A stretch of 46,863 nt of DNA from a virus (taxonomy: Duplodnaviria; Heunggongvirae; Uroviricota; Caudoviricetes): IMG/VR virus record IMGVR_UViG_2541047864_000006; one strand, written 5' to 3'. Under the pieces are notes generated by a model. It was not told the origin of the DNA. It searched no databases and saw only the letters and a list, made by a program, of their open reading frames with translations. Both the position numbers and the translations under genes were made by a program. Each line of letters opens with the position of its first letter. Within the stretch, counting starts at the first letter, position 1. This document shows, in pieces, positions 8,204 to 19,478 of this stretch.

Positions 8204-9036
8204 ACAGTTTAACGGCAAATAACCGTTTGTCGCAACAGCTGGTGGTCAGTGTCGCTGAACACCTGTTGTTACGGCATGAATGCAGATTACCAAATTACCT
8301 GGCTGTAAGTAACCACAGAGAACTTTACCTGACTGTGGGGGGCGAGTTGTGCGGGAACTTAACCGCTGGTTTCGTGACGGAAGAGGGCTTTATGTCCATG
8401 TTATTCGTTGGGAACCAGAAACACAGCGCGTTATCTATCTTCGCAAAGACTACCCGCATGAGTGCTTTAGTCCTTTGTGGAAATTCAGGCGTGATTTTGT
8501 TGAGTGTGAAGGACCACCAGCACATTGATTCTGCCATTCCGGGACGTTACACTGTTCAGGCACCTTATAAAGCGGGTGACGGGATTGGCGTCCTGGAAAT
8601 GTTATCGGCGATATATGACGCGCCAGCGTCTTTTTTATCGTCTGCGTCTGTGCACACCCAAATTATGGTGGGCTGGACGGGGGCACCGAAAGGTGCGCCG
8701 GTTTCCGATAACGCCGGTTACGCCAACCCCGTTCAGTTCACCACCAGCGAAATTGGCGTTTCCGGTGGTGAAGGTAATTCACTGTTATCGGAGGCTGCCA
8801 TCATGGCTACTGTCCCAGCCCTCACTCGTCTGAATGATGAAGACTTACATAAACTCAGTTATGTAACAACTGCACTACGTGCTCTGCGCAAGGTAACTCT
8901 TTCGGATCCGCAGGCGCATCAGGTTTTGGTAGAAACCCTTCTTAACTTGCAGGCTGAACGTATTCGTCTGGCGGATAAGGCTAATTTTCATATTCACCGT
9001 CTCCTGAATATCAGCGGAGGGCATCGTCATGCTTAA
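8200..9036 (+). CDS. Hypothetical protein
   Basis: 278-aa ORF, ATGA overlap with upstream gene. Confidence 0.5.
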   Translation: MNSLTANNRLSQQLVVSVAEHLLLRHECRLPNYLAVSNHRELYLTVGGELCGNLTAGFVTEEGFMSMLFVGNQKHSALSIFAKTTRMSALVLCGNSGVILLSVKDHQHIDSAIPGRYTVQAPYKAGDGIGVLEMLSAIYDAPASFLSSASVHTQIMVGWTGAPKGAPVSDNAGYANPVQFTTSEIGVSGGEGNSLLSEAAIMATVPALTRLNDEDLHKLSYVTTALRALRKVTLSDPQAHQVLVETLLNLQAERIRLADKANFHIHRLLNISGGHRHA

Positions 9037-15315: not shown

Positions 15316-15614
15316 AAAATTCCTTAATACTGATAACTTGGCGCACTATACACACGTTCCTGAAGAAAGCTATAGTTTTTTGATGGGGTTGAAGATGGCT
15401 GGATGTCTAAAATAAACATTGCTTCATATGTTCAACTATGCGTTAATGATTGCGTCGGTTTGAAGAACAGACGATATACGAAGTAGTTTACTAAAGCAGT
15501 TCTCATTTCAGGTGTTATTCACTTATTCCTTCTTTGAGTCTCTCCAATTAAGTACGAAGTCGTTTCTGTTATACAAGCCATTTATGCCGAAAGGCTCAAG
15601 TTAAGGAATGTAGA

Positions 15615-15830
15615 ATGTCAAATAAAATGACTGGTTTAGTAAAATGGTTTAACGCTGATAAAGGTTTTGGCTTTATTTCTCCTGTTGATGGTAGTAAAGA
15701 TGTGTTTGTGCATTTTTCTGCGATTCAGAATGATAATTATCGAACCTTATTTGAAGGTCAAAAGGTTACCTTCTCTGTAGAGAGTGGTGCTAAAGGTCCT
15801 GCAGCAGCAAATGTCATAATTACTGATTAA
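15615..15830 (+). CDS. cspB: Cold-shock protein, CspB-like
   Basis: 71 aa; near-identical to E. coli CspB by recall ([21 protein letters not shown]); long AT-rich 5' leader; divergent from cspF. Confidence 0.9.
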
Positions 15831-16112
15831 AATTCATAGTTTGTCTGTATACGATAACGAAGAAGGCTGATGCCTGAGTGGAGATACAGACAGAGTGGTG
15901 AATATTGGATCTCTTTAATAAATAGTAAGGAGGTCCAATACATGAAACAATGGCCAGCATATTTGGCAATAACTTAATCAGGAAAAGTATGCTAACCATT
16001 GTGGTGAAGTGCAGGTTTGCTGCATGAATAGTTTTACAGCAGAAGCTAACTGCTGGCATAGCAAAACAAAGTGCGTAAGTGGATGACTCCCACAAAAAGT
16101 ACCACAATATTA

Positions 16113-16193: not shown

Positions 16194-16364
16194 TCAAGCT
16201 ACAGCTTTAAGATTTGTCTGGAATACTTTGTTGCAATGAGGGCAGATCAAAAGGGCACCTTTTTGTATTCTTGAAAAACTGTGTTCTGACTCTTGGGTGC
16301 AGTTTGGGCAGGAACATTTAACGAGATAATTACGGCGTGATTTTGAGTCTTTACGTTCTGACAT
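16194..16364 (-). CDS. Small zinc-ribbon protein (YnfU-like)
   Basis: 56 aa from ATG 16364; CxxC...CxxC (CPNC...CPHC); moderate SD. Confidence 0.5.
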   Translation of the reverse strand: MSERKDSKSRRNYLVKCSCPNCTQESEHSFSRIQKGALLICPHCNKVFQTNLKAVA

Positions 16365-16582
16365 AGGCTTTTCCTGTATAAATGGCCGTATACAGTACAC
16401 TAAATATGAAAACATATCTCGTATTATTATTTAACATATGATTTTCTTTTAAAATAATTACCCACATTTTTAATGTGTCTGTTTTTTAGCGCCGTTGAGA
16501 ACAACGTTTGCTATAAAAACTACCCCATAGACTCCGATCTTTTCAAACATATTGCACCATCTGTGTACATCGGGGTGAGGAT

Positions 16583-16798
16583 ATGAAATCAATGGATAAG
16601 TTAACAACAGGTATCGCCTATGGCACATCGGCTGGTAATGCTGGTTTCTGGGCATTGCAGTTACTCGATAAAGTAACTCCGTCACAGTGGGCTGCAATCG
16701 GTGTGCTGGGTAGTCTGGTATTTGGCTTGCTGACGTACCTGACAAACCTTTATTTCAAGATTAAAGAAGACAAGCGTAAGGTTGCACGGGGAGAGTAA
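16583..16798 (+). CDS. Holin (phage 21 S / EssD-EssQ-like)
   Basis: 71 aa; GAGG SD; transmembrane segments and charged C-terminus; resembles E. coli prophage holin EssD by recall. Confidence 0.85.
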
Positions 16799-16802
16799 TT
16801 CA

Positions 16803-17354
16803 ATGACACAAAACTATGAACTGATTGTGAAAGGGATCCGCAATTTTGAGAATAAAGTTGCGGTAACTGTAGCATTAAGGGACAAAAAACGCTTTGACGG
16901 TGAAATTTTTGACCTGGACATCTCGCTGGACCGTGTTGAAGGTGCCGCGCTGGAGTTTTATGAGGCAGCAGCCAGAAGGAGCATCAGACAGGTCTTCCTG
17001 GAAGTTGCAGCCGGGTTATGTGAAGGGGATGAGCAGTCGCCGGAAAAGCGCCCCATAATTTTAGAGGCGCAGAATGTGTGGATAACCTACAAAGGAAAGC
17101 TACCGGGAAGAATTACTGGTTCTCTGAAGACGCCACCGACGGCATTGCGGTCAGAAAAAGATGATATTGAATCGCCCATTGAAAAACTGGAGGGCAGCGT
17201 CGCTGATCTGAATAAAAAATTGTCGGTGCTGATTCCTTCTGAAGATGAAAAAAAACGCCGCGATGAGCAGTTTGCGGCGTTTTACGATTATTGCATTGAA
17301 GTTACTCGCAGGAATTTTGTGAAGATTTTTGAGGAGGGTAAATCTCTTCAGTAA
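16803..17354 (+). CDS. Hypothetical protein inserted between holin and endolysin
   Basis: 183 aa from ATG 16803, 5 nt after holin stop, GGAGAG SD; no TM segment; family not recognised. Confidence 0.5.
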   Translation: MTQNYELIVKGIRNFENKVAVTVALRDKKRFDGEIFDLDISLDRVEGAALEFYEAAARRSIRQVFLEVAAGLCEGDEQSPEKRPIILEAQNVWITYKGKLPGRITGSLKTPPTALRSEKDDIESPIEKLEGSVADLNKKLSVLIPSEDEKKRRDEQFAAFYDYCIEVTRRNFVKIFEEGKSLQ

Positions 17355-17562
17355 GCTTAATGGCGGACGCTGCAATTAATTCAGGAAGGTCCGCAAGGTC
17401 ATCTGTCAGTGGATATGATGAAAAATCGGCGGCAGTTCTGTTAAGAAGCGCTTTAACTAATTCCTTTTCCTTCTCCGGCAACAAGTTGATTAGGGCTACG
17501 ACTGCTTGCCTGAGTGCGATTAAATCAGCAAAAGTTTGTTTTGGTAGATTTGTGTAATCCAT
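17302..17562 (-). CDS. Hypothetical small acidic protein, antisense orientation inside lysis cassette
   Basis: 86 aa from ATG 17562 with AGAGGTG SD; 3' end overlaps 3' end of 16803-17354 by 53 bp (convergent). Confidence 0.45.
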   Translation of the reverse strand: MDYTNLPKQTFADLIALRQAVVALINLLPEKEKELVKALLNRTAADFSSYPLTDDLADLPELIAASAIKLTEEIYPPQKSSQNSCE

Positions 17563-17675
17563 AGTCACCTCTGTGTTTATCAGATTGACATCCTCCTCCC
17601 GCCAGTGCCCATCACTGGTGAGGTAAGATTTAACATATCCAGGGATTTGAAGCCGATAAATCCTGATAAATATCC

Positions 17676-18703
<1,028 letters not shown>

Positions 18704-19066
18704 ATTAATATTAAATCGGATTATTTTTAGCGCTGAATGTGAAATTTAAATAAAAAGGACTCTTCCATGAGTCAAAATCCTTGAAATCTTAAGGGTAAGA
18801 TAAAAGGTCATTAGACAGAATGACACGTTTTATTAATAAATAAAGCTATTGTTTCATTCGTGTGTTTTTCTTTACAAAAGTAATCCTTGCTATGGTTGGT
18901 TAATCATGCGTTAATGGTGTTCTGGTTTGTTACAAAATTATCTGAAGCAGTCATTGTTATAAATTTATTATTTGTACCTCTTGAGATTTCCTTGTTGGTT
19001 TTTCTCTCTGATATTTTTTTTCGGACCATTCTGCCCAAGGGCTAACTTCTTCAAAAGGTAATAATG

Positions 19067-19279
19067 ATGTCTAACAAAATGACTGGTTTAGTGAAATGGT
19101 TTAACCCTGAAAAAGGTTTTGGTTTCATCACGCCGAAAGATGGTAGCAAAGATGTGTTTGTCCATTTCTCAGCTATTCAGAGCAACGATTTCAAAACGTT
19201 AACTGAGAATCAGGAAGTCGAATTTGGTATTGAGAACGGACCTAAAGGCCCCGCGGCTGTTCATGTAGTGGCACTTTGA
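19067..19279 (+). CDS. cspI: Cold-shock protein, CspI-like
   Basis: 70 aa; matches E. coli CspI by recall ([45 protein letters not shown]). Confidence 0.9.
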
Positions 19280-19478
19280 GGTAGAAAATATTACAAACCA
19301 TATTCACTTTAGATGCCCGTGTTGCCATGGTTCTCAGTATAGAACATCATCTTTTGATGTTTCTGACAGGAATCCTTTCGGGGCAAAATGTATCTTTTGT
19401 AAATCAATGATGATTACATTTGATAATATTTCACAATACTTAAATGTTAGCCGTCTGTCGTTAGATTTAAGAAAGTGA
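19269..19478 (+). pseudogene. Zinc-ribbon ORF (CPCC...CIFC) lacking an in-frame ATG/GTG/TTG start; possible pseudogene or non-canonical start
   Basis: 69-codon open frame directly after cspI; first in-frame ATG only at 19407. Confidence 0.35.

What the first reader, a model, noticed from the sequence alone, without database searches (positions are those of the whole stretch)
16803..17675. Two-gene insertion (convergent, overlapping 3' ends) splitting the holin-endolysin pair
Between holin and SAR endolysin, which are normally adjacent, lie a 183-aa soluble protein translationally coupled to the holin and an 86-aa acidic protein on the opposite strand with its own strong SD. Their 3' ends overlap by 53 bp, so the mRNAs are mutually antisense. 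Neither is recognisable; the arrangement suggests a self-contained moron such as a toxin-immunity pair, a lysis-timing regulator, or a defence module expressed from the lysogen.
Basis: partly seen in the sequence, partly recalled or inferred. Interest (0 to 1): 0.6.

Follow-up and report, generated by a model that had tools for sequence, protein, structure and literature searches.

The report
Antisense moron inside prophage lysis operon
Between the holin and endolysin genes of this E. coli lambdoid prophage lie the known late gene ydfR, lengthened at its end, and a small backward-facing gene that appears to carry its own promoter and terminator; the pair recurs in E. coli and Salmonella prophages, and what the small protein does is unknown.

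Summary
A 183-codon + strand ORF (16803-17354) and an 86-codon - strand ORF (17562-17302) overlap by 53 bp between a P21-type holin and a SAR endolysin.

The interpretation needs revising. ORF183 is recognisable: residues 1-112 are YdfR/DUF1327 (E 7e-42). This late gene normally occupies this slot, as in E. coli K-12 Qin essQ-ydfR-rrrQ, and the K-12 protein was recently reported to bind RNase E.

The movable piece is about 510 bp (17139-17648, 43% GC). It holds the last 71 codons of ORF183 plus ORF86. ORF86 has a conserved promoter-like block, a Shine-Dalgarno site, and a hairpin-U8 terminator that lies inside ORF183.

ORF86 is a real gene. Homologues at 40-49% identity exist in other E. coli and in Salmonella Gifsy-like prophages, with dN/dS about 0.3. 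In every lineage it converges on a late-operon ORF and overlaps it by 53 or 59 nt in the same phase.

It is best read as an antisense moron of a new, function-unknown family: an acidic three-helix protein with no fold or family match. A toxin-immunity, defence or lysis-timing role is neither supported nor excluded.

Interest is moderate.

The parts
16583..16798 (+). P21-type class II holin (essQ-like, 71 aa, Met1/Met4 dual start). Context: the upstream neighbour.
   Evidence: Pfam PF04971, E 1.1e-33. RefSeq annotation essQ.
16803..17354 (+). ORF183, a YdfR-family late gene. Modelled as a beta3-alpha N-domain (aa 1-73), a disordered linker (74-123) and a C-terminal helical hairpin (123-181).
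   Evidence: PF07041 DUF1327, E 7.4e-42 over aa 1-112. phrog_2091 over the full length. 82% identity to K-12 YdfR over aa 1-74. AlphaFold2 model with mean pLDDT 58; N-domain 70-84.
16790..16795 (+). Shine-Dalgarno GGAGAG for ORF183, inside the end of the holin gene. There is a 4-nt gap between the holin stop and the ORF183 ATG.
   Evidence: Read directly from the sequence.
17139..17648 (.). Mobile, lower-GC segment (43.1% against 48-51% in the flanks). It is absent from the 116-aa ydfR variant of phage vB_EcoS-689R5. It contains the last 71 codons of ORF183, ORF86 and most of the ORF86 upstream region.
   Evidence: BLASTN junctions at 17138/17139 and 17648/17649. GC values. Complete in 281 of 5426 complete E. 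coli genomes.
17139..17354 (+). C-terminal extension of ORF183 ('A' part): a coiled-coil stretch, the KKRRDEQFAAF motif and a tail. The last 35 aa are homologous to the C-termini of the partner ORFs in the other lineages.
   Evidence: Alignment A3. BLASTP 43% identity over 35 aa, E 9e-06. dN/dS about 1 on the tail and 0.3-1 on the coil.
17248..17283 (-). Intrinsic-terminator-like hairpin for the leftward ORF86 transcript. Stem 17283-17274 pairs with 17261-17252, the loop is 12 nt, and the run of eight U is at 17255-17248. It starts 18 nt after the ORF86 stop and is encoded within ORF183 codons KKRRDEQFAAF.
   Evidence: RNA fold -15.9 kcal/mol, z -2.8. The eight core pairs are present in all three lineages, with one G-C to A-U compensatory change; 88% of cells are paired against 39-68% with slid partners. 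The consensus scan missed it because the loop exceeds 8 nt.
17302..17562 (-). ORF86 ('B'): an acidic (pI 4.57) three-helix cytoplasmic protein with a disordered tail. It belongs to a new family confined to Escherichia and Salmonella prophages (phrog_2572; RefSeq WP_001306174.1, 'hypothetical protein').
   Evidence: Homologues P0140, P0141 and P0171 at 38-49% identity and the same length. dN/dS 0.30-0.37 across lineages, and the only stop-free frame. AlphaFold2 pLDDT 71 with helices 8-25, 30-48 and 59-74.
17302..17354 (.). 53-bp convergent overlap of the two ORFs. In the other two lineages the overlap is 59 bp, in the same phase (length mod 3 = 2).
17566..17571 (-). Shine-Dalgarno GAGGTG for ORF86, 3 nt before the ATG. 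The other lineages have TAAGGA at the matching position before an ATG or GTG start.
   Evidence: Sequence. Alignment A4.
17632..17670 (-). Candidate ORF86 promoter block. -35 TTTATC at 17660-17655, a 17-nt spacer, and -10 TATGTT at 17637-17632. It is overlapped by the invariant direct repeat ATAAA-N5-ATAAA (17656-17670 on the + strand).
   Evidence: This is the only promoter-like hexamer pair at the same position in all five aligned lineages, with 7 of 12 consensus matches. The repeat is unique in the window; 0.08 expected by chance. The block is also conserved in Salmonella, where no endolysin gene follows. Promoter activity was not shown.
17676..18209 (+). SAR endolysin (rrrQ-like, 177 aa). 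Context: the downstream neighbour. It has no recognisable Shine-Dalgarno site.
   Evidence: PF00959, E 2.6e-24. RefSeq rrrQ. Sequence.

Best explanation
The interval holds two things of different origin.

(1) ydfR. This is the DUF1327 late gene that ordinarily sits between the P21-type pinholin and the SAR endolysin in E. coli lambdoid prophages. It is translated right after the holin. By homology to K-12 YdfR it is a soluble protein that binds the RNase E catalytic domain.

(2) A moron of about 510 bp, with lower GC, inserted antisense into the late lysis operon. Its core is an autonomous leftward transcription unit made of four parts:
- a conserved AT-rich promoter block with a direct repeat, next to the endolysin start;
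- a Shine-Dalgarno site;
- an 86-codon gene for an acidic three-helix cytoplasmic protein;
- a hairpin-U8 terminator.

The late + strand ORF reads through that terminator and the last 17 codons of ORF86 in one conserved phase. This gives YdfR a helical C-terminal extension and produces the 53-bp ORF overlap.

Inferred mode of action:
- In the lysogen, ORF86 is transcribed from its own promoter. Its transcript stops about 50 nt past its stop codon, so it does not run antisense into ydfR and the holin gene.
- After induction, Q-antiterminated late transcription runs head-on through the cassette and ignores the hairpin. It makes YdfR with its extension and shuts ORF86 off by promoter occlusion and collision.
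- The ORF86 protein most likely acts by binding another protein. Its target is unknown.

Shown: gene reality, cassette boundaries, conservation of the hairpin, Shine-Dalgarno site and upstream block, and conservation of the overlap. Inferred: promoter activity, expression in the lysogen, the expression switch, and the protein's function.
For: ORF183 is YdfR:
- Pfam E 7e-42; 82% identity to K-12 YdfR.
- The essQ-ydfR-rrrQ order is seen in K-12 and in many phages.
- K-12 YdfR aa 1-72 binds the RNase E N-terminal domain and co-purifies RNA (PMC13232886).

Cassette:
- Junctions at 17139 and 17648 relative to the 116-aa variant.
- GC 43% against 48-51% in the flanks.
- Present in 281 of 5426 E. coli genomes and in plaque-forming phages 2H10, PhiR5_1, PhiR12 and PhiR63_1.

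ORF86 is real:
- Homologues in other E. coli and in Salmonella Gifsy-like prophages at 38-49% identity and 89-93 aa.
- dN/dS 0.30-0.37 with dS above 1, and the only frame without stops.
- A Shine-Dalgarno site is conserved before the ATG or GTG start.
- Three-helix model with pLDDT 71.

Autonomy of the unit:
- Hairpin plus U8, 18 nt after the stop.
- The stem nucleotides are invariant across lineages even where the encoded peptide differs, with one compensatory pair.
- The upstream block and repeat are conserved even where the neighbouring gene differs.

The same convergent overlap (53 or 59 nt, same phase) occurs in three lineages and two positions: between S and R, and after Rz.
Against: - No transcript, transcription start site or protein data exist for ORF86.
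- The promoter hexamers match the consensus at only 7 of 12 positions, and the consensus scan did not flag them.
- The U-tracts after the hairpin are weak in the other two lineages.
- Hairpin covariation is not statistically significant.
- About 12 of 96 sampled copies carry start-codon, frameshift or nonsense changes in ORF86. Selection is therefore not strict in all hosts.
- The constant association with an in-phase late ORF could mean the two proteins work together, which a plain moron reading does not require.
- Within-lineage polymorphism cannot separate the ORF86 frame from its antisense frame.
Confidence: 0.6

Rival explanations
1. Cognate protein pair. The helical C-terminal module of the late ORF ('A') and ORF86 ('B') bind each other and act as antagonists. 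B, made in the lysogen, would neutralise A or the YdfR-A fusion until late expression outruns it. The unit would then be a lysis-timing device, an abortive-infection device or a toxin-immunity-like device that moves as one piece.
For: - A and B always travel together, in the same phase, across three diverged lineages.
- A occurs alone (73 aa, coupled to the Rz stop, in Salmonella), fused to DUF1327, or fused to another N-terminal region.
- The A frame is open in every lineage.
- The A coil shows dN/dS about 0.3 in one comparison and about 0.5 for the stand-alone gene.
- Both are predicted to be helical, as expected of partners in a helical bundle.
Against: - The only part of A conserved between lineages is the 35 aa that lie over B's terminator and 3' end. 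On these dN/dS is about 1, as expected for tolerated read-through.
- There is no match to any toxin, antitoxin or defence family.
- The convergent layout is unlike type II toxin-antitoxin operons.
- A-like coils occur without B in Stx phages.
- No complex prediction could be run.
Confidence: 0.2
2. Cis-antisense RNA device. The important product would be the leftward RNA, not the protein. It would pair with the late mRNA over about 100-370 nt, trigger RNase III or RNase E cleavage between the holin-ydfR and endolysin-Rz segments, and so set the ratio or timing of lysis gene expression. This is analogous to lambda oop acting on cII.
For: - The transcription units converge and overlap. The terminator sits inside the partner ORF.
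- The stem nucleotides are conserved more strictly than the encoded peptide.
- The neighbouring YdfR domain binds RNase E.
- The position between S and R is well suited to uncouple them.
Against: - ORF86 shows protein-level constraint (dN/dS about 0.3), a conserved Shine-Dalgarno site and in-frame indels only. Translation therefore matters.
- In Salmonella the cassette lies after Rz, where it cannot uncouple holin from endolysin.
- There is no Rfam family and no significant structure beyond the terminator.
Confidence: 0.1
3. Decaying remnant. The extension and ORF86 would be leftovers of recombination in cryptic prophages, with no present function.
For: - The slot is highly mosaic, with many deletion variants of 103, 114, 116 and 176 aa.
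- About 12% of sampled copies have disruptive changes.
- PGAP labels ydfR here as a pseudogene.
Against: - The cassette is present in plaque-forming phages.
- ORF86 is kept at 86-93 aa with dN/dS about 0.3 between E. coli and Salmonella lineages whose synonymous sites are saturated.
- The Shine-Dalgarno site, hairpin and upstream repeat are all retained.
Confidence: 0.07
4. ORF86 is a chance or shadow ORF. On this reading the real feature is non-coding DNA, or the + strand 65-codon ORF at 17360-17557.
For: The + strand ORF65 shares wobble positions with ORF86, so within-lineage pN/pS is equally low for both. ORF65 starts 6 nt after the ORF183 stop.
Against: - Across lineages the antisense frame carries 2-3 stops and has lower amino-acid identity than the ORF86 frame.
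- ORF65 has no Shine-Dalgarno site and is a basic Ser/Ala-rich sequence typical of a shadow frame.
- ORF86 has a conserved Shine-Dalgarno site and start, and similar-length homologues.
Confidence: 0.03

Closest known systems
E. coli K-12 Qin prophage YdfR (b1555, P76160; Pfam DUF1327)
   Same: It lies in the same position, directly after the P21-type holin essQ and before the SAR lysozyme rrrQ. It is 82% identical over residues 1-74. That region is reported to bind the RNase E catalytic domain and to co-purify RNA (PMC13232886).
   Different: K-12 YdfR is 103 aa. Its stop overlaps the rrrQ start, and there is no reverse gene. The window protein has a disordered linker and a 60-aa helical extension that runs over the ORF86 terminator and 3' end. 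RNase E binding of this variant has not been tested.
Lambdoid morons at the lysis cassette, e.g. lambda bor (from general knowledge of Hendrix/Juhala moron concept; not tested here)
   Same: It is a small autonomous transcription unit on the strand opposite to the late operon, at the lysis cassette. Its base composition deviates from the flanks, and it is absent from otherwise collinear relatives. In Salmonella the cassette sits right after Rz, as bor does in lambda.
   Different: Bor is a secreted lipoprotein, whereas ORF86 has no signal peptide or lipobox and is acidic and cytoplasmic. The ORF86 terminator and last 17 codons lie inside the coding sequence of the upstream late gene. Here the unit splits S from R.
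Lambda oop RNA / cII and P22 sar / ant cis-antisense pairs (from general knowledge; not tested here)
   Same: The transcripts converge, and their 3' ends overlap the 3' part of a phage gene by some tens of nucleotides. This gives scope for duplex-dependent RNA cleavage and transcriptional interference.
   Different: The leftward RNA here is a translated mRNA under protein-level constraint. No processing or regulatory effect has been shown.
Other reverse ORFs in the same S-R slot: Stx2-converting phage 86 gp06 (phrog_1853) and an unannotated 210-aa ORF in Stx1_699/Stx2_499
   Same: They lie in the same slot, downstream of a DUF1327 or coil ORF and upstream of the endolysin, on the opposite strand. 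The 210-aa ORF has its own hairpin-T7 terminator inside the + strand ORF.
   Different: They show no sequence similarity to ORF86. gp06 does not overlap its neighbour.
Type II toxin-antitoxin modules
   Same: Both have two small adjacent genes on a mobile element, one of them acidic.
   Different: The genes here are convergent and not co-transcribed. Neither matches any toxin or antitoxin family, and the + strand partner is expressed only with the late genes.

Membership tests
YdfR / DUF1327 (PF07041) | Sequence match to the family model above the curated cut-off | tested here: met
   141.9 bits against a cut-off of 25, E 7.4e-42, covering aa 1-112. 82% identity to K-12 YdfR.
YdfR / DUF1327 (PF07041) | Position between a class II (P21-type) holin and a SAR endolysin in the late operon, with close coupling to the holin | tested here: met
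YdfR / DUF1327 (PF07041) | Binding of the RNase E N-terminal catalytic half through residues 1-72 (reported for K-12 YdfR) | not testable with these tools
   Known only from PMC13232886 for the K-12 protein.
Phage moron (autonomous unit inserted between genes of a phage operon) | Present in some phages and absent at the same site in otherwise collinear relatives | tested here: met
   17139-17648 is missing in vB_EcoS-689R5 and in K-12 Qin, while the flanks align at 89-91%.
Phage moron (autonomous unit inserted between genes of a phage operon) | Own promoter | tested here: inconclusive
   A hexamer pair (-35 TTTATC, 17-nt spacer, -10 TATGTT) and the ATAAA-N5-ATAAA repeat are conserved in position in all lineages. 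The match is only 7 of 12, the consensus scan did not call it, and no activity data exist.
Phage moron (autonomous unit inserted between genes of a phage operon) | Own terminator | tested here: met
   A 10-bp stem plus U8, 18 nt after the stop; -15.9 kcal/mol, z -2.8. The stem is conserved in all lineages. This evidence is in silico only.
Phage moron (autonomous unit inserted between genes of a phage operon) | Base composition different from the neighbours | tested here: met
   GC 43.1% against 48.2% (ydfR N-terminal part) and 51.5% (endolysin). GC3 of ORF86 is 0.37.
Phage moron (autonomous unit inserted between genes of a phage operon) | Expressed from the repressed prophage | not testable with these tools
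   No transcriptome or proteome evidence was found.
Type II toxin-antitoxin pair | Two co-directional, co-transcribed genes with a member of a known toxin or antitoxin fold family | tested here: not met
   The genes are convergent. There are no Pfam, NCBIfam or PADLOC matches and no significant fold matches.
Antiholin / membrane lysis regulators (S21-71, T4 RI, P1 LydB type) | Transmembrane or secreted domain that allows contact with the holin | tested here: not met
   ORF183 has no hydrophobic span: its highest 19-residue hydropathy is 0.84. The ORF86 maximum of 1.62 falls on an amphipathic helix that contains D, R and Q.
Cis-antisense RNA regulators (lambda oop type) | Convergent transcripts that overlap at their 3' ends | tested here: inconclusive
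   The ORF overlap and the terminator position predict about 107 nt of overlap with ORF183, and full coverage of ORF86 by late mRNA. The transcripts themselves were not observed.
Anti-CRISPR AcrIIC4 | Significant sequence or fold similarity | tested here: not met
   The profile hit has E 0.2 only. AcrIIC4 is absent from the Foldseek PDB matches.

The most novel reading that the evidence does not exclude
The conserved in-phase 3' overlap would be functional. The late-operon helical module (here fused to the RNase E-binding YdfR domain) and the lysogen-expressed ORF86 would form a sense/antisense interlock working at both RNA and protein level. ORF86 protein would sequester the module. Convergent transcription plus the mRNA duplex would make the two expression states mutually exclusive. 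Together they would set when, or whether, the lysis cassette fires. This would be a new kind of lysis-lysogeny safety catch, shared by E. coli lambdoid and Salmonella Gifsy-like prophages.
Probability: 0.12. Interest if true: 0.7.

Novelty: new member of a known kind. Interest (0 to 1): 0.4.

Why it matters
The S-R interval of P21-type lysis cassettes is present in most E. coli genomes, yet its resident genes have no assigned function.

This work separates the resident late gene from a mobile antisense cassette. The resident gene is ydfR, now linked to RNase E. The cassette occurs in about 5% of complete E. coli genomes and is widespread in Salmonella Gifsy-like prophages.

The cassette is everywhere annotated only as 'hypothetical protein', while the intact ydfR ORF beside it is called a pseudogene. 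The work gives exact coordinates for a promoter block, a terminator and start codons that can be mutated cleanly.

If ORF86 proves to be expressed in lysogens, it is a candidate lysogenic-conversion or phage-host interaction factor in pathogenic lineages such as CFT073, S88 and APEC O1. If it instead works together with the YdfR extension, it would bear on how lysis-gene expression is kept safe in lysogens.

Tried and rejected
**Family and structure searches on ORF86 and the ORF183 C-terminus**
- Pfam gave only sub-threshold ABATE and DUF1823 matches (13-14 bits against cut-offs of 24-25). The GenBank label 'DUF1823 containing protein' in the PhiR phages is therefore probably over-annotation.
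- NCBIfam, PADLOC and the PDB sequence search found nothing.
- A PDB profile search gave only coiled-coil noise for A, and AcrIIC4 at E 0.2 for B.
- Foldseek against PDB and BFVD gave nothing below E 1.
- The AFDB50 library was unavailable.

**RNA families**
Rfam found nothing in the interval.

**Within-lineage population analysis**
96 loci gave 16 haplotypes and 37 polymorphic sites. This could not discriminate ORF86 from its antisense frame, because the two share wobble positions. Cross-lineage comparison was needed.

**Rejected readings**
- The + strand ORF65 (17360-17557) was rejected as a shadow frame.
- A LexA box in the upstream block was considered and rejected by eye. The resemblance of ATAAA-N5-ATAAA to response-regulator direct repeats such as the CpxR box comes from memory and is untested.

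**Other searches that led nowhere**
- The genome-contig scan returned only one E. coli locus.
- Literature searches for the RefSeq accession, the candidate Salmonella locus tags and the phage names gave nothing useful.
Full report
**Context**

The window is a complete lambdoid prophage of E. coli. The stretch 16583-18209 is 100% identical to several E. coli chromosomes, and 5154 of 5426 complete genomes match part of it. RefSeq annotation of an identical copy gives this gene order: antiterminator Q, cspF, cspB, ynfU, essQ (class II holin), 'YdfR family protein', 'hypothetical protein' (reverse strand), rrrQ (lysozyme), rzpQ, cspI, and so on to the terminase. This is a Qin-type late region.

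**The observation**

All coordinates hold.
- The holin ends at 16798.
- ORF183 starts at 16803, 4 nt later. GGAGAG lies 7 nt upstream of its ATG. It ends at 17354.
- ORF86 runs from 17562 down to 17302 on the - strand. GAGGTG lies 3 nt before its ATG.
- The ORFs overlap by 53 bp (17302-17354).
- The SAR endolysin starts at 17676.

ORF86 is acidic (pI 4.57). Neither protein has a membrane-type hydrophobic span.

**ORF183 is recognisable**

Residues 1-112 match Pfam DUF1327 at E 7.4e-42. Residues 1-74 are 82% identical to E. coli K-12 YdfR.

In K-12 Qin the order is essQ, a 4-nt gap, ydfR (103 aa), then rrrQ, with the ydfR stop overlapping the rrrQ start. The same slot is filled by DUF1327 genes of 103, 114, 116, 168, 176, 183, 211, 268 and 296 aa in E. 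coli, Shigella, Salmonella and Stx phages. S and R are therefore not 'normally adjacent' in this cassette type.

A 2026 study found that K-12 YdfR residues 1-72 bind the catalytic N-terminal half of RNase E, by two-hybrid and co-purification. YdfR preparations also carried RNA, and overexpression changed few transcripts (PMC13232886).

The AlphaFold2 model of ORF183 has three parts:
- a beta3-alpha N-domain, aa 1-73, pLDDT 70-84;
- a disordered linker, aa 74-123;
- a helical hairpin, aa 123-181, pLDDT about 60.

**What is actually inserted**

Against the 116-aa variant (phage vB_EcoS-689R5), homology breaks at 17138/17139 and resumes at 17648/17649. Against K-12 it breaks at 17010 and resumes at 17666.

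The extra 510 bp has 43% GC, against 48-51% in the flanks. It is complete in 281 of 5426 E. coli genomes. It is also present in plaque-forming phages 2H10, PhiR5_1, PhiR12 and PhiR63_1.

The short spacer in the 116-aa variant still resembles the ORF86 leader region. That variant therefore looks like a deletion derivative.

PGAP aligns only 112 codons of ydfR and calls the intact 183-codon ORF a pseudogene 'missing C-terminus'.

**ORF86 is a real gene**

Word-based searches found only copies at 85% identity or more in E. coli. The exhaustive HMMER scan found diverged homologues of the same size:
- P0140, 93 aa, 49% identity;
- P0141, 89 aa, about 40% identity. The related P0171 (93 aa, 38% identity) came from the profile search.

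P0140 belongs to a cluster seen on at least 1000 Salmonella enterica contigs. A profile search added nothing outside Escherichia and Salmonella.

Across lineages the ORF86 frame is the only one without stops. It has the highest amino-acid identity of the six frames, and dN/dS is 0.30-0.37 with dS above 1. Indels are in-frame and fall in a loop. A Shine-Dalgarno site precedes the ATG or GTG start in each lineage.

The model is a three-helix protein with a disordered tail, pLDDT 71. It has no significant match in the PDB or BFVD.

Within-lineage polymorphism was uninformative, because the antisense frame shares wobble positions.

About 12 of 96 sampled copies carry a changed start codon, a frameshift or a nonsense mutation.

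**The convergent overlap is conserved**

In every lineage the ORF86 homologue converges on a late-operon ORF and overlaps its 3' end by 53 or 59 nt, in the same phase. The partner ORF differs between lineages:
- DUF1327 plus linker plus coil (this window);
- DUF1327 of K-12 type plus a different extension, 174 or 243 aa;
- a 144-aa ORF without DUF1327;
- in Salmonella Gifsy-like prophages, a stand-alone 73-aa ORF whose start overlaps the Rz stop. There the cassette lies between Rz and the small terminase subunit, not between holin and endolysin.

Only the last 35 residues of these partners are detectably homologous (43% identity, E 9e-06). Those residues are exactly the part that lies over the ORF86 terminator and 3' end.

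On that tail dN/dS is about 1. On the upstream coil it is 0.3-1.0, and for the stand-alone Salmonella gene it is about 0.5.

Whether the extension is a functional domain or a tolerated read-through remains open. I put it near even odds.

**An autonomous transcription unit**

Terminator. Eighteen nt after the ORF86 stop, the - strand can form a 10-bp stem (AAAACGCCGC / GCGGCGUUUU) with a 12-nt loop, followed by a run of eight U. The fold is -15.9 kcal/mol, z -2.8. The consensus scan missed it because of the loop size.

On the + strand the same bases encode KKRRDEQFAAF of ORF183. The eight core pairs are present in all three lineages, although the encoded peptide differs in one of them (RQRHHENGVAF). 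One pair changes from G-C to A-U. 88% of cells are paired, against 39-68% when the partners are slid. Covariation is too sparse to be significant.

Upstream block. Upstream of ORF86 a block is almost invariant in all lineages, including Salmonella, where no endolysin follows. It contains:
- the direct repeat ATAAA-N5-ATAAA, which is unique in the window against 0.08 expected by chance;
- the only promoter-like hexamer pair found at the same position in every lineage: -35 TTTATC, 17-nt spacer, -10 TATGTT. It matches the consensus at 7 of 12 positions.

Overall. Lower GC, presence or absence between collinear phages, its own Shine-Dalgarno site, a terminator and a conserved upstream block together fit the classical moron pattern. 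Here the unit is placed antisense in the late operon.

**Other cargo in the same slot**

Other reverse genes occupy the S-R slot in Stx phages. One is Stx2-86 gp06 (phrog_1853). Another is an unannotated 210-aa ORF that has its own hairpin-T7 terminator inside the annotated + strand ORF. The slot is therefore a recurrent docking site for backward-facing cargo.

**How it most likely works**

Shown: the anatomy described above.

Inferred:
- In the lysogen, ORF86 is transcribed leftward. Its transcript terminates inside the ydfR extension and does not run antisense into ydfR and the holin gene.
- After induction, Q-modified polymerase reads through the hairpin and through ORF86 head-on. It makes YdfR with its extension, the endolysin and Rz, and it silences ORF86.
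- The ORF86 protein is small, acidic, helical and cytoplasmic, with no catalytic motif. It most plausibly acts by binding a partner.

No data say whether that partner is host, phage or the YdfR extension. A toxin-immunity or defence role has no positive evidence. A membrane-level antiholin role is unlikely because there is no membrane segment.

**Verdict**

The cassette is a new, narrowly distributed member of a known kind of element. It has one unusual, conserved feature: its terminator and 3' end are overprinted by a late ORF in a fixed phase. Interest is moderate. The main value is a corrected annotation and a cleanly testable unit inside a very common lysis cassette.

Noticed in passing
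window 15454-15893 (+) and 18920-19325 (+): Two Rfam cspA thermoregulator 5' UTRs (157 and 113 bits) precede cspB-like and cspI-like cold-shock genes. They bracket the lysis cassette, so cold-inducible host-type genes are interleaved with the late lysis genes.
   Followed up: no
window 8560-8636 (+) and 8661-8748 (+): Rfam hits to the isrK Hfq-binding sRNA (55 bits) and the C4 antisense RNA (83 bits) lie side by side in the early region. This suggests a P1/Gifsy-type RNA-based immunity or anti-Q element in this lambdoid prophage.
   Followed up: no
window 16803-17354; L001 6221-6556; L002 3221-3556: RefSeq/PGAP annotates only the first 112 codons of the intact 183-codon ydfR ORF and flags it as a pseudogene 'missing C-terminus'. 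This is probably a systematic mis-annotation wherever the cassette is present.
   Followed up: partly
window 17640-17680: The SAR endolysin start (17676) has no Shine-Dalgarno site and lies 321 nt after the previous + strand stop. Five nt upstream of the ATG (5 nt between the repeat's last base, 17670, and the ATG at 17676) is the AT-rich repeat ATAAA-N5-ATAAA, which also forms the candidate -35 region of the leftward ORF86 promoter. Endolysin initiation and ORF86 transcription may therefore compete for the same DNA or RNA.
   Followed up: partly
L008 2041-2673 (-) and the equivalent region of L009 (Stx1_699, Stx2_499): An unannotated 210-aa reverse ORF lies in the same S-R slot. It overlaps the annotated + strand 'hypothetical protein' by about 250 nt and has its own hairpin-T7 terminator. 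The annotated + ORF C-terminus there may be read-through. It has no Pfam, PHROG or PADLOC match.
   Followed up: partly
L006 2317-2631 (-) (Stx2-converting phage 86 gp06): A third, unrelated reverse gene (104 aa, phrog_1853) sits in the same slot, downstream of a 268-aa DUF1327 protein. It does not overlap its neighbour.
   Followed up: no
L049, L050, L060, L062, L069, L071, L074; L014, L020, L025, L036; L083: Natural variants of the cassette:
- Seven loci have the ORF86 ATG changed to ACG; the three of these examined in detail (L049, L060, L074) also carry a 7-aa in-frame deletion in the ORF183 coil. This is the 176-aa form, common in Shigella.
- Four loci differ at the ORF86 stop; in the three examined (L014, L020, L036) a 2-nt insertion frameshifts both tails.
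- One locus has a nonsense codon in ORF86.

   Followed up: partly
window 16194-16415 (-): A ynfU-like zinc-ribbon ORF (two CxxC pairs) lies on the reverse strand just upstream of the holin. It is another backward-facing small gene in the late region.
   Followed up: no
L003 (PhiR5_1) 2084-2344 and related PhiR12 records: The GenBank label 'DUF1823 containing protein' for the ORF86 homologue rests on a sub-threshold Pfam match (best E 0.028, about 13 bits against a cut-off of 25).
   Followed up: yes
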